From Callorhinchus milii (Eukaryota): DNA of 64,000 nucleotides. The stretch's first letter is position 1, and the number at the start of each line of letters is the position of its first letter. The notes under the pieces are model-generated. The model ran no database searches. It had not been told where the DNA came from and was given only the letters and a program-made list of their open reading frames with translations. A program made the translations under genes and the position numbers. The DNA lies in assembly GCF_018977255.1 (NCBI RefSeq), contig NW_024704786.1:248001-312000 (forward strand), in the 5' to 3' direction. Of this stretch, positions 9,925 through 15,108 are shown piece by piece.

Positions 9925-10030
9925 CTTTGGTCACAGCGACGTCCCATGTTAGCATCTGGGTGTGGTCGTGCCTCATCTGAAGACATTTTGGCCACTTCCA
10001 TCATTCAGCGGTCAGTCGCGATGAACAAAG
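9925..10030 (-). promoter_or_regulatory. SECIS element (type II-like) in SELENOW 3'UTR
   Basis: Minus strand: AUGA(10004-10001)-UGGAAGUGG-cc-AAAA(9989-9986)-UGUC..GGCA mini-stem-CCACACCCA-GAUG(9956-9953). Lower stem GCGAC/GUCGC and CUUUG/CAAAG. Lies in the terminal non-coding exon starting at 10045. Confidence 0.88.
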
Positions 10031-10645
10031 CCAACGGCGGTTTAACTGGAAGAGAAGCACAGGTTTGATCTCACAGGAGAACTGACCTCACGATTGCGAC
10101 AAACATTCACAGACGATCACGACACCAATTCTCACCCCCAACTCTTCCCCCGAGGACTGTTCGCCGTCACGCGCAGATAAATAATAATAATAATCCTCGC
10201 ATTGGATCCAGCGCCGAACTTACCGTAAGGTGGAGTGACTCTGTACATTGTGGGCGAAACACAGCAGTGTCCCACAAAGTCGTGGGTTGAAAGCGAACAA
10301 CTTATTATTTTTTTGAAGGAATTATTACCCTCGGAAAACTGGGTTGCTATTTACTGCTGGGTAAACGTAGGCACGTGCGTGGAGTAAGGAAATTTACCGA
10401 ACATTTCGGCCTGCCGGGAATCAAACCCAGGTGCTCTCGCCCGCTATACAGGATAGTTGGCACCGGGAAATCCTATAGGAATATGAGCCCCCTCTGTCCC
10501 ACTCTGCTCTCTTACCCCCTCACTTATGCAATAGGTTTTCTCTCTTAAAATACATTGGTGCCCTTTGCTTCAGCCGTGGCTCCTGTCGACATTGGAATGA
10601 AATCGGACACTCACCTCCATTACACACCACACGGCTGCTGCCTTC

Positions 10646-13600
10646 TCATTTGCGGAGAGCAGCCTGGATCCAGGCCACTATCTTCTGAAGCTTATCGTTG
10701 TCCACAAAGCCCTCTCCATTCTGGAAGAAATCAAGAAGCATTTCAGAATCAGACTCTTTTCTGCTACTCACAAGCAGTGCCCGTTGTGAGGCCCCTATAT
10801 TTTACTATAATAATAATAATCCTGGCATTCGATACAGCGCCTCATCACATCTTCCGAGGCGTCTCAAAGCGCTTCACAGGACACACTGTAAAGTGACTTG
10901 ACTGCGTACTTTGTGGGTGAAACGCGGCAGCCAATGGCGCACAGCAGCGTCCCCACAAACACTCGGGGATTGAAGCGACAAATTATTTTTATTGGAAGGG
11001 ATTATTGACCCCGGAAAAGCGATCCGCCAGTTGACTTAACAACCAAGTTCCTACTTCCTGCTGGTAAACAGAGGCGTGTGTGCGTTTGTGTGGAGTAAGG
11101 AAACTTGTCCGGGAATCGAACCCACACACACAAATCAAAATTTGTAGATTGTTAACGAACCTCTTTTGAGTGCAACACTTTGCCATCCTTTGTCACAACC
11201 TCAAATTTCCCTGATCGGGTCTGTGTCCCCTCCCCAGTCTGTCAAAGGGAAGAAATTTCAGTTCAACAACAACAACAACTTGCACTTACACAGCAGGGCA
11301 GCACTTAACAGTGGCGGAGCCTGACTCCGAGCAGGGGGTGGGGGGGGGCGCGGTGGGGGGGAGAGGGGAGGTGGCCGTAAGCATGGTGGAAAAGGAAGGT
11401 TTTAAGGCGGGACTTGAAAAAGGGGTACGAGGGGGCAAATTGGAGGGATTGAGGGAGAGCGTTCCAGAGTTTTGGGGCGCGATGGCTGAAAGCGAGACCT
11501 CCAGTGCTGGGGCGGAGGGTGCGAGGGACAAGCAGGAGCCGGGGGCCAGTCGAGCGGAGGCACCGACCGGGTGATGGATTGGGGGGTGAGTTGGTCGGAG
11601 AGGGAGGAAGGGAGGTGCCGGGGAGTGAAGCGTTTCAAGCGACGCACAGCAGAACGTTACAGCGATACACACAATACAACATCACATTTGCACAGCGCCT
11701 TTCACGTCGGGAGGTTGGGCACCCGAGTTGGGGGAGGGAGCCGAGGGTTGTGGAGAGGGAGGAGATAATAATAATAATAATCCTTGCGTTTGACACAGAG
11801 CCTCATCACGTCTTCGAGACATCTCAAAGCCCTTCACCGGATACGCTGTAAAGTGAATTGACCGTATGTTTTGTGGGCGAAACACGACAGCCAATTGCCC
11901 ACAGCAGTGTCCCCCACAAACAGTCGTGGGTTGAGTGACCAAATTATTATTATTATTTTTTTCGAAGGGATTATTACCCACCAACCACTGGGCTACAGGA
12001 GATGAACAAAATCTTGACTTACTATTTCCAATTCCCCAGGAAATTCCACTTCAAGGGATTTCTTGAGTTGGAGAAACTGAAACAAGAAGGGGAAAAGGCT
12101 TTCATATTAAAATAAAGACAGTTTCGGACGTGGTAGAACTCCTTTCCCCTCCTTTTTTTATGTATCCCGTCGATTGATATAACGTCTCTCGCGTCAGGGG
12201 GACGTCCCAAAGCGCTTCACAGGATTCACTGATGTGCAGAGACTGTATTTGCGGCAGCGACATCCCATAAACAGCCATGGAGTGACTGAGCCATTTTATT
12301 GCCGGGGTGGGAGGGAGGTGTGTGGGGGTGATTCTCAGCCACGACAACAGGGCAGAGAGAGAGAAATTCCCTTTTGTGGAGTCCTCTTGTTTACCAGCAG
12401 TCAGTAGGAACCCGGTTGTTAGTCAATTGGCGGATCACTTTTCCGGGGGTAATAATCCCTTCAAATAATAAATAAATTGTTCACTCAGTCCACGATTGTC
12501 TGTGGGGACGTCGCTGTGCACAATTGGCTGCCGTGTTTCTCCCACAAAAGATACAGTCCATTCACTTTACAGCGTATCCTGTGAAGCGCTTTGAGACGTC
12601 TCGAAGACATGATAAGGCGCTGTATCAATGCAAGGATTATTATCACTTTCTTTTCCACGGCACTGTGGGATCTGTAACAGGCACAGACGAGGTCTCAGTT
12701 TAACATCTCGCCCGAAGGCACGGCGTCTCCAACAATGCAGCGATCCCCAAATAAATACACTTTAAATGATTTTCTCATCCCTTCCCTATTAATGTGATGG
12801 ATCACCACTGTCTAATCACTGGACACCCTCCCAAACTGGTCTATCCTTCCAGAGATCAGGGACCCAGAGCTGAATCAGGTTTAACAATAACAATCCTTGC
12901 ATTTGATTCAGTGCCTTATCACGTCTTCGAGACGTCTCAAAGCTCTTCACAGAATGTCCTATAAAGTGAACCGACTGCATATTGTGTGGGCGAAACTGTT
13001 TGTGCCGCACAAACAGCCGTGGATTGAATAATAGCAATCCTTGCATTTGGTACAACGCCTTATCACGACATTGAGACATCTCAAAGGGTTTCGCTTGAGA
13101 GGCTCTAACCACAAAGCAGCAGGACTCCAAATACACTCGATTTTATGGCTCGAGATGCTTACCTTGGACTTGTAACCTCAGGAACCACTGGGGGGGAAAG
13201 GGGAAAACGTGTTAATACAGCACACAGGTACAATCAACAATATCTCTGAAATGCAACCCCCCAGGACACAAATTTTAATCTCTCTTGGGTCTCCGACTTC
13301 AAGTTCGTTTACACGTAGTGACTGCAGAGCTGCTCTACCTACAAACGCTAGTTCCCACAGCACAATTTAGCTCAATGGAGGCACGTGAAACCGCTTTCCT
13401 CAGATATCCAGGATATACTGTAAAGTGCAGTCGCTTGTGTATTTTGTGGGCGAAAATACACGTCGCTGTGCACCAGTTGATGTCCCACAAACAGTGGTGG
13501 ATTGAGCGACCACATTACTTTCTATTGATCCTGAAGGGACTATTACCCACGATAAAATAGGGTCAGGTTTCTATTGGAAACGAGAGAGCAATGGATATTC

Positions 13601-15108
13601 TGTGAAGTGCAGTGACTGTGCATTTTGTGTGAGCCACCTCAGCACCTGACGAAAATAGTCCTTGCGAGGCGCTTTCGTTGGGAACGATCCCCGCCCCTGG
13701 TCACAGCTAAATATTTCGAAGTCTTTAAGAGGAAAAACCTGTTCCACACCGGCGCTTCCAAGGTTGTTAGATATCAAAACAAGACAAACTCATTATAGAT
13801 CTCCTCCTCCACCCCCTCTCAGACACAGGCACACCCTTCCTTCCTCCCTCGCACGCACACACACACACTCCCTCCCTCCCTCGCACGCACACACACACCC
13901 TCCCTCCCGGGTAAAACGCAGTAACAGGAGGAGGCCACTCAGCCCCTCGAGCCTGTTCCACCATTCGATAAGATCACGGCTGATCTGGACCTCAACTCTA
14001 ATTACTAAAGTAACTCCCTAAAGTATTTTGTGGCCGAAACACAGCAGCCAATTGAGCCCAGCGACGTCTCGCAAACAGTCGTGGTTTGGGTGACCAATTA
14101 TCATTATTTTTTGGAGGGGTTATTACCCTCGGAAAAGCGATCCGCCAATCGACTAACAACCGGGTTCCAACTGACTGCTGGTAAACAGAGGCGTTTCTGT
14201 GTGTATGTGTCTGTGTGTGTGCGGAGTAAGGAAACTTGCCCAGTGTTTCGCAATGACCTGACCCGCCCGGGAACCGAACCCCCTCTCTCTGGCGAGGCGA
14301 TGGCTCGTCTCGTAAATCATTCCATAACAGTTTGAACGTCACGAAAGCGCTTTACTGGGAGTCGCCGTCGAGTGTGTATTCATAATGACTGAAATCAGCC
14401 AATTTCATAGAATTATACAGCACAGAAGGAGGCCATTCAGCCCATCGTGTCTGTGCCGGCTCTTTGAAAAGAGCTTCCAATTCAATCCCGCTCCCCCGCG
14501 CTCTCCCCGTAGCCCTGATCAACCCCACTCCCCCGCGCTCTCCCCATAGCCCTGCAAACTTGCCCTCGCAAACATACACACAGCAAAGTCCCACAAACAG
14601 TTCAGCGCAAGTCCCCCGTCTCTCTCCCCAAATCCCACATTTCCTACCCACCACCCTCCCACACCATCGGTTCATTTTATCCCGGGGCTTGCTTTCCGAA
14701 CGGAGAGAGAGGGAGGGAGGGAGGAAGTGGAGTCCTGAAGCTCAGTGGTTAGAGCACTCGCTTTGCAAGTGAGAGACCTGAGTTCAATTCCAGGCAGAGG
14801 GCGAAACCTTGGGCAAGTTTCCTTACTCCACACAGAGCCTAATAATAATTCCTCCAAAACCAAAAATAATAATAAATTGGTCATTTTCAATCTACAACTG
14901 TTTGTGGGACATTGCTGTGCGCAATTGGCTGCCGCGTTCGCCCACAAATATACAGTCAATTCACTTTACAGTGTGTTCTGTGAAGCGCTTTGGGACGTCC
15001 TCCCGACGTGAAAAGCGCTATATCAAATGCGAGGATTATTATTATTATTATAAGAGAGACGGGAGAGAGCGGGTCTTACCAGAAAACCACATGAATCTGG
15101 AGACCCAT
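10646..15108 (-). CDS. SELENOW: Selenoprotein W (86 aa, CxxU motif, Sec encoded by TGA at 13180-13178)
   Basis: Exons 15108-15080 (29), 13187-13163 (25), 12076-12023 (54), 11238-11161 (78), 10720-10646 (75), all GT-AG and phase-compatible. Protein [86 protein letters not shown], colinear with human SelW (VVYCGAUGYKSKYLQLKKKLEDEFPG). Confidence 0.95.
14730..15050 (+). mobile_element. tRNA-derived SINE, short young subfamily (near-identical copies at 585-890, 50345-50670, 58140-58360, all minus)
   Basis: A-box-like AGCTCAGTGG, B-box GTTCAATTCC, L2-type tail AAGCGCTTTGGGACGTCC..GCGCTATATCAAATGC and a (TTA)n end. Confidence 0.85.

What the first reader, a model, noticed from the sequence alone, without database searches (positions are those of the whole stretch)
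9925..15108. Hidden selenoprotein gene: five micro-exons, in-frame UGA and SECIS
Seen: exons of 25-78 bp splice to an 86-aa SelW with C-G-S-U, where the Cys codon is split across intron 1, plus a well-formed SECIS in a separate 3' non-coding exon. The ORF track misses it entirely, and automated annotation often truncates such genes at the UGA.
Basis: partly seen in the sequence, partly recalled or inferred. Interest (0 to 1): 0.7.

Follow-up and report, generated by a model that had tools for sequence, protein, structure and literature searches.

The report
Selenoprotein W gene reported as lost
This is a six-exon selenoprotein W gene of a cartilaginous fish, whose five splice joints appear in public sequence assemblies and whose internal UGA codon is likely read as selenocysteine; the protein is already in a public database, but the gene's presence contradicts a 2026 survey that lists it as lost in cartilaginous fishes.

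Summary
The gene is real and ordinary in kind. Five minus-strand coding exons (29, 25, 54, 78, 75 nt) splice to 86 codons with C-G-S-UGA at 10-13. All five GT-AG junctions occur in probable RNA contigs, and single contigs carry all six exons. The product equals UniRef A0A4W3HG06, Callorhinchus milii selenoprotein W, except at the UGA, so it is not hidden from databases.

The SECIS lies where SELENOW has it, 41 nt into exon 6, but 'well-formed' is overstated: Rfam 14.1 bits against a cut-off of 35, fold z -0.3 to -0.75.

The twist: PMC13134290 (2026) says SELENOW1 was lost in Chondrichthyes. Exon structure, tree (AU p=0.006 against grouping with SELENOW2/MIEN1-type genes) and neighbours (kaptin, alpha-SNAP, SLC8, Otx) make this most likely the SELENOW1 orthologue. 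Against that, the paper's own marker EHD2 is not on this contig, and its tree figure could not be read.

The parts
15080..15225 (-). Exon 1: 5' UTR (at least to 15225; true start not determined), ATG at 15108, 9 codons and the first two bases of the Cys10 codon
   Evidence: (contig piece 15080-15225); an in-frame stop upstream excludes a SELENOV-like extension
13163..13187 (-). Exon 2 (25 nt): last base of the Cys codon, Gly, Ser, UGA, Gly-Tyr-Lys-Ser-Lys
13178..13180 (-). In-frame TGA at codon 13, the predicted selenocysteine of the CxxU motif
   Evidence: no other letter listed here; a contig over 13163-13510 has 0 differences and a DNA-like contig over 13057-13510 differs only at 13251
12023..12076 (-). 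Exon 3 (54 nt, codons 19-36)
11161..11238 (-). Exon 4 (78 nt, codons 37-62); one residue longer than the matching stretch of mouse SelW
10615..10720 (-). Exon 5: codons 63-86, stop TGA at 10648-10646, then 31 nt of 3' UTR
9538..10045 (-). Exon 6: non-coding last exon; 3' end not determined (contigs reach 9538 and overlapping ones about 9305; AGTAAA at 9683, AATAAA at 9217)
9941..10013 (-). Predicted type II SECIS: AUGA core at 10004, 41 nt into exon 6 and 294 nt after the UGA in the mRNA; imperfect helix II; apical AA; 6-bp mini-helix; 3' GA at 9956-9955
9910..10045 (-). Predicted long basal stem that carries the SECIS at its top
   Evidence: -48.5 kcal/mol, z -2.72, 5 of 200 shuffles as stable; the opposite strand gives z -1.01

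Best explanation
This is a transcribed and spliced six-exon selenoprotein W gene, most likely the true orthologue of vertebrate SELENOW (SelW1), whose UGA at codon 13 is likely decoded as selenocysteine with the help of a predicted type II SECIS in the non-coding last exon. Shown: exon structure, splicing, the UGA, family membership and a tRNA-Sec gene in the genome. Inferred: SECISBP2 and EEFSEC bind the SECIS 294 nt downstream and deliver Sec-tRNA. The 86-residue product would take a thioredoxin-like fold and work as a small thiol/selenol oxidoreductase through Cys10 and Sec13, by analogy with the mammalian protein, which binds a 14-3-3 cysteine through Sec13. When selenium is short the UGA would act as a premature stop with three junctions more than 50 nt downstream, which predicts nonsense-mediated decay. 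The normal stop lies 31 nt before the last junction and would escape it.
For: Splicing; one 881-nt and one 595-nt contig each hold all six exons in order (table 8).

Identity: 85 of 86 residues equal UniRef A0A4W3HG06, the difference being at the UGA. The collection shows C at that column also for the human, rat, sheep, bear and pheasant records and holds no U in 271 of 271 proteins fetched, so the C most likely stands for U.

Family: Pfam Rdx 54.5 bits, cut-off 22.6; TIGR02174 69.6 bits, cut-off 34.2; mouse SelW 2NPB E=3.9e-23 against MIEN1 2LJK E=1.4e-4; model pLDDT 78, TM 0.87 to 2NPB.

Gene structure matches the mammalian description in PMC3316567 section 8: six exons, coding in 1-5, 9 residues from exon 1, SECIS about 38 nt into exon 6 (here 41). 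The SELENOW2/MIEN1-type genes of this genome have one 95-98-nt exon in place of exons 2 and 3.

Tree: the protein falls with SELENOW1-type rows (support 92/92); grouping it with the three paralogues is rejected, p-AU 0.0058.

Neighbours: kaptin, alpha-SNAP, an SLC8 exchanger and an Otx gene; in human, SLC8A2, KPTN, NAPA, SELENOW and CRX lie in one 1.53-Mb interval (PMC8872157).

Machinery: tRNA-Sec 79.7 bits. SECIS motif scan: one hit in exon 6, against 21 of 2000 shuffles.
Against: Sec insertion was not measured. The SECIS is weak by score: 14.1 bits against 35, z -0.28 and -0.75, two internal loops in helix II, and a 31-nt AA-to-GA span that a scan limited to 18-27 nt misses. My scanner's range was widened after I had seen the element, and shuffled 64-kb windows give 3.7 hits on average against 1 observed, so being the only hit in the window is no evidence.

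Orthology: PMC13134290 states that SELENOW1 was lost in Chondrichthyes. Its synteny markers are not on this contig: EHD-family hits are on C3, C9 and C49, radial-spoke hits on C394 and C3, and NOP53 is on C15. The key tree branch is not starred, the inside of the clade is unresolved, and no named vertebrate SELENOW2 or MIEN1 sequence was in the tree.

The protein departs from the family at conserved places: Glu62 where 73 of 79 aligned rows have Lys, and Gln42 where 64 of 79 have Pro (80 rows chosen by me from 271). The runs are RNA only by guess.
Confidence: 0.9

Rival explanations
1. A real selenoprotein W-family gene, but a separate ancient paralogue (for example of the invertebrate and lamprey type), so that the published loss of SELENOW1 in cartilaginous fishes still stands.
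For: EHD, NOP53 and radial-spoke markers are on other contigs. The highest identity in the tree is to a lamprey sequence, 64% over 67 columns, and no starred set holds the protein.
Against: The six-exon pattern of mammalian SELENOW is kept. Kaptin, alpha-SNAP, SLC8 and Otx neighbours match the human SELENOW interval. The nearest rows by path are tetrapod and bichir SelW. Only one SELENOW1-type locus was found in this assembly.
Confidence: 0.06
2. A gene that is still transcribed but no longer recoded: the SECIS has decayed, the UGA works as a stop, and the gene is on its way to loss.
For: Low SECIS scores; substitutions at conserved residues 42 and 62; a published loss in the lineage.
Against: The frame is intact for 73 codons after the UGA with 54-65% identity to named vertebrate SelW. 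The core motifs are all in register. The spliced form dominates: contig depth 5184 against 47 for an unspliced piece in one run (contig depth is a crude measure). The 14 differences listed for 9300-10045 and exon 1 include none in the SECIS or coding exons (weak). The Rfam model also found no SECIS near two other UGA-bearing paralogues or genome-wide, so it is insensitive here.
Confidence: 0.03
3. A cysteine homologue (CxxC), with the TGA being an assembly error or a rare allele, as the C in the database record might suggest.
For: The UniRef record as served shows C at position 13.
Against: Human and rat SELENOW records show C in the same way. Contigs from other samples match the TGA.
Confidence: 0.01

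Closest known systems
UniRef100 A0A4W3HG06, Selenoprotein W, Callorhinchus milii
   Same: 86 residues, identical at 85; the one difference is at the UGA column.
   Different: Served with C at 13, most likely the collection's rendering of U; the original record could not be opened.
Mammalian SELENOW / SelW1 (mouse structure 2NPB; gene structure in PMC3316567 section 8)
   Same: CxxU at 10-13, six exons with coding in 1-5, 9 residues from exon 1, SECIS alone in exon 6 about 40 nt from its start, same fold (TM 0.87), 58-61% identity to rat and bear.
   Different: C-G-S-U instead of C-G-A-U; Thr at 37 where mammals have Cys; one extra residue in exon 4; Gln42 and Glu62 at conserved Pro and Lys columns; EHD and NOP53 not on the contig.
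SELENOW2 and MIEN1/Rdx12
   Same: Rdx family, thioredoxin-like fold, CxxU or CxxC near the N-terminus.
   Different: 35-40% identity over short stretches, a different exon pattern, and a separate side of the tree. This genome has three such genes elsewhere.
SELENOV (placental mammals)
   Same: Homologous C-terminal domain and, by PMC3316567, the same six-exon plan; 45% identity to mink SELENOV.
   Different: No long N-terminal extension: an in-frame stop lies 22 codons upstream of the ATG.

Membership tests
SELENOW (SelW1) | Rdx / SelWTH thioredoxin-like domain | tested here: met
   PF10262 54.5 bits, TIGR02174 69.6 bits, both over cut-off; fold matches 2NPB
SELENOW (SelW1) | CxxU motif with an in-frame UGA at codon 13 | tested here: met
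SELENOW (SelW1) | Six exons, coding in 1-5, 9 residues from exon 1, SECIS alone in exon 6 | tested here: met
   against PMC3316567 section 8
SELENOW (SelW1) | Phylogenetic placement with SELENOW1 and SELENOV, apart from SELENOW2 and MIEN1 | tested here: met
   support 92/92, not starred; AU p=0.0058; the other side held only this genome's three paralogues and two non-vertebrate-type rows
SELENOW (SelW1) | Synteny marker of PMC13134290: EHD2 nearby (RSPH4A as anchor) | tested here: not met
   EHD-family hits on C3, C9, C49 and radial-spoke hits on C394, C3; none on C45, a 556-kb contig. The paper itself calls this synteny limited.
SELENOW (SelW1) | Synteny with the human 19q13.32-33 interval (SLC8A2, KPTN, NAPA, CRX) | tested here: met
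   kaptin E=2e-23, alpha-SNAP E=2e-8, SLC8 and Otx family within about 100 kb (human list). NAPA versus NAPB and the SLC8 paralogue were not told apart; Otx5/Crx is assigned by elimination and recall.
Eukaryotic type II SECIS | RUGAN / NGAN core and unpaired apical AA about 11-13 nt from the core | tested here: met
Eukaryotic type II SECIS | Stable helix II and a covariance-model score over threshold | tested here: inconclusive
   7 pairs with two internal loops; 14.1 bits against 35; z -0.75; the model also found nothing genome-wide
Eukaryotic type II SECIS | Compensatory changes across orthologous 3' UTRs | not testable with these tools
Selenoprotein | Sec inserted at the UGA in vivo | not testable with these tools
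   needs labelling, mass spectrometry or a reporter; a tRNA-Sec gene is present
SELENOV | Long N-terminal extension in exon 1 | tested here: not met
   in-frame stop upstream of the ATG
SELENOW2 / MIEN1 | Fused second exon of 95-98 nt and grouping with these genes | tested here: not met

The most novel reading that the evidence does not exclude
An intact, expressed, Sec-encoding SELENOW1 in a chimaera overturns the loss of SELENOW1 in Chondrichthyes reported in 2026. The loss is an artefact of five tiny exons on a small repeat-rich contig that exon-by-exon searches cannot see. The same blind spot may hide a chondrichthyan SELENOW2 (UGA gene beside a TRPM-kinase gene on C22) and a lamprey SELENOW1-type gene, so several inferred losses in this family would fall.
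Probability: 0.8. Interest if true: 0.42.

Novelty: already known. Interest (0 to 1): 0.32.

Why it matters
As biology it is an ordinary member of a well-studied family, and its protein is already in UniRef. It matters as a correction. The most recent map of vertebrate selenoprotein evolution (PMC13134290) counts SELENOW1 as lost in cartilaginous fishes, and this locus argues that at least the chimaera lineage kept it, with the mammalian six-exon plan intact. It also shows how such a loss can be inferred falsely: a six-frame profile scan of the genome found the three SELENOW2/MIEN1-type genes and missed this one. The gene offers a ready test of an imperfect SECIS with a long apical part.

Tried and rejected
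Rfam at gathering threshold on the whole window and at E<=10 on 8.5 kb found no SECIS; only a 181-nt search gave the weak match. RF00031 genome-wide rang nowhere, controls included, so it says nothing. It also found no SECIS in 40 kb around the paralogues, where the elements may lie outside the stretches fetched.

My first strict SECIS pattern (8 or more ungapped pairs) found nothing. The relaxed scanner was tuned after seeing the element, and its window-wide uniqueness was rejected as evidence.

No run holding the 3' UTR is on record as RNA; this is no evidence either way.

Intron 1 retention as a regulated isoform was considered because unspliced pieces appear in several runs and was set aside: in the deepest run the unspliced piece has about 1% of the spliced contig's depth, and contigs cannot rank isoforms. 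An extra 5' non-coding exon was suspected from an acceptor-like tract before the ATG; contigs run straight through to 15225. A processed retrocopy was considered: the DNA-like run has no intron 1 joint (1 run, 1 junction) and the genome search shows one locus.

The single-sequence fold was poor (pLDDT 54) and was not used. Single exons alone had no Pfam hit and exon 5 no useful PDB hit. The Atlas gave no answer for the Otx exon.

The supplement of PMC13134290 was cut after figures S12 and S22, so S1, S18 and S19 were not seen. The 2012 paper's alignment and tree figures are images and were not seen. Literature searches that returned no report of a chondrichthyan SELENOW1: (the last listed 15 of 477). 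and PMC4904359 gave nothing on synteny.
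Full report
What is there. On the minus strand, five short coding exons lie at 15108-15080, 13187-13163, 12076-12023, 11238-11161 and 10720-10646. Joined by coordinates they give 86 codons and a stop, with GT-AG introns of 1892, 1086, 784 and 440 nt in phases 2, 0, 0, 0 (one search had exon 4 off by one base).

Splicing. Contigs of seven runs that the tool guesses to be RNA were laid on the locus. Introns 2 to 5 are joined in 4 of 4 runs (three studies). Intron 1 is joined in 3 of those 4 and in 3 of 3 further such runs. Two contigs, of 881 and 595 nt, hold all six exons in order. A DNA-like run shows no intron 1 joint and runs straight across exon 2. The contigs define a fifth intron of 569 nt (10614-10046) starting 31 nt after the stop, a last exon from 10045 to at least 9538, and a 5' UTR to at least 15225. 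They cannot give strand, ends or expression level. No other letter is listed at the TGA in either call.

Identity. A search with exon 5 found one protein, UniRef A0A4W3HG06, 'Selenoprotein W, Callorhinchus milii'. It equals the spliced product at 85 of 86 places and shows C at the UGA. That C is most likely a rendering of U: the human record M0QYX1 and rat, sheep, bear and pheasant records also show C there, and none of 271 proteins fetched contains U. The protein passes Pfam Rdx and TIGR02174 cut-offs. It is far closer to mouse SelW (E=3.9e-23) than to MIEN1 (E=1.4e-4). A model built on 80 aligned rows (pLDDT 78) matches the mouse structure with TM 0.87. Among the 150 best representatives, 85 do not cover both motif positions, 43 read CxxW, 10 CxxC and 12 something else. 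I infer that the W rows are TGA read as Trp by gene callers.

The SECIS. In exon 6 an AUGA lies at 10004, 41 nt from the exon start and 294 nt after the UGA in the mRNA; PMC3316567 gives 38 nt on average for mammals (section 8 read). Eleven nucleotides later comes a run of A, then a 6-bp mini-helix, then a 3' GA. The Rfam model aligns with all three motifs in register but scores 14.1 bits against a cut-off of 35 and missed it in larger searches. The hairpin alone is no more stable than shuffles (z -0.28 and -0.75). With its long basal stem it reaches z -2.72, 5 of 200 shuffles. A motif-and-fold scan hits exon 6 once, against 21 of 2000 shuffles of that exon, but its spacing range was widened after I saw the element; with 18-27 nt it finds nothing, and shuffled whole windows give 3.7 hits on average. 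Position and motifs make it very probably the SECIS; 'well-formed' is too strong.

How it likely works. The genome has a tRNA-Sec gene (79.7 bits). By established knowledge of eukaryotic Sec insertion, the SECIS would recruit SECISBP2 and EEFSEC so that the UGA is decoded. The product would be a small thioredoxin-like oxidoreductase using Cys10 and Sec13. For the human protein, Sec13 is needed to bind Cys191 of 14-3-3 beta (PMC8508763, passages); nothing here tests that in this fish. The UGA has junctions 69 nt and more downstream, so failed recoding predicts nonsense-mediated decay, as reported for human SELENOW (PMC9599142, passages). The true stop, 31 nt before the last junction, would escape. 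All steps in this paragraph apart from the tRNA gene and the distances are inferred.

The conflict with the literature. PMC3316567 (2012; abstract, passages, sections 8 and 14) lists SelW1 among selenoproteins found throughout vertebrates and names elephant shark explicitly only for SelW2 and Fep15. [quoted passage not shown] Its preprint says the same (passages). Its figures S1, S18 and S19 could not be read and may bear on this point.

Tests of orthology. (a) Gene structure matches the mammalian six-exon plan, whereas the three other Rdx genes found in this genome have one 95-98-nt exon in place of exons 2 and 3. (b) In a tree of 43 rows (40 chosen from 271 proteins, plus those three paralogues) the protein lies among SELENOW1-type rows behind a branch of 92/92; the inside of that group is unresolved and no starred set holds the protein. 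With three long-branch rows dropped, holding it together with the paralogues is rejected, p-AU 0.0058. No named vertebrate SELENOW2 or MIEN1 was available for the tree. (c) Local identity is 54-65% to six named vertebrate SelW rows and 35-40% to the paralogues. (d) Neighbours: an Otx gene about 22 kb to one side; a sirtuin-2, a RIN/VPS9 gene, kaptin, alpha-SNAP and, about 95 kb away, an SLC8 exchanger on the other. [quoted passage not shown] Against: EHD, NOP53 and radial-spoke hits are all on other contigs, so the 2026 paper's own marker is not met. The Otx gene is called Otx5/Crx by elimination among four Otx loci and from recalled sequence features. On balance orthology is very likely.

Why it could be missed. 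A six-frame scan of this genome with the Pfam Rdx model returned three loci over cut-off and did not return this one at E<=10; the full protein finds only exons 3 to 5. This shows the blind spot of exon-by-exon searches. It does not show what the published pipeline did.

Verdict. Observation confirmed, interpretation supported, SECIS quality overstated. The gene is a known member of a known family and is already in UniRef, so novelty is 'already known'. Interest is modest, 0.32, and comes from the likely correction of a published gene loss.

Noticed in passing
G000:C22:2827200-2828250 (minus; L003, L014), kinase exon at L015:3438-3605: A second UGA-bearing Rdx gene lies about 8 kb from an exon matching the TRP-channel alpha-kinase structure 1IA9. 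TRPM7 is the SELENOW2 marker in PMC13134290, whose text does not list Chondrichthyes in the SELENOW2 branch. TRPM6 versus TRPM7 was not told apart.
   Followed up: partly
G000:C23:7612480-7618930 (plus; L012, L013): Two tandem MIEN1-type genes. The first keeps an in-frame UGA and ends in a CAAX-like motif; the second has Cys at the Sec column and seems to lack the first Cys. Exon 1 of the first copy and both SECIS elements were not located.
   Followed up: partly
proteins P0269 and P0191: A Petromyzon marinus 'selenoprotein W-like' record and a near-identical unnamed full-length protein with W at the Sec column fall on the SELENOW1 side of the tree, which questions the reported loss in Cyclostomata. 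They group with unnamed non-vertebrate-type rows, so orthology is open.
   Followed up: partly
window 16821-23250 (+): A sirtuin-2-like gene starts head-to-head, about 1.6 kb from the SelW 5' end; its first intron 16846-17528 is joined in 2 of 4 runs. A shared promoter region is possible.
   Followed up: partly
window 16502-16636 (+): A 44-codon ORF with one hydrophobic stretch, preceded by an acceptor-like tract, lies between SelW and the sirtuin gene. Not searched.
   Followed up: no
window 27845-28645 (-), 35000-40500 (+), 43140-49761 (-), 56326-58909 (-), 60344-60973 (+), 4567-4700 (-): Other genes in the window: a C2H2 zinc-finger gene, a RIN/VPS9 gene, kaptin, alpha-SNAP, a seryl-tRNA-synthetase-like exon (weak Pfam hit, E=0.18) and a histone H3 exon. 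From recall, the contig mixes genes of human 19q13.2 (SIRT2, RINL, SARS2; near SELENOV) and 19q13.32-33 (near SELENOW).
   Followed up: partly
window 14735-14797 (+), 827-889, 19651-19708, 35992-36064, 50600-50662, 53378-53450: Six tRNA-like Rfam matches. The one in intron 1 sits in a very high-copy repeat and is likely a tRNA-derived SINE head rather than a tRNA gene.
   Followed up: no
G000:C825:2527-2766 (L031): A fourth, divergent Otx-family locus with glutamine and alanine runs, besides three typical ones.
   Followed up: no
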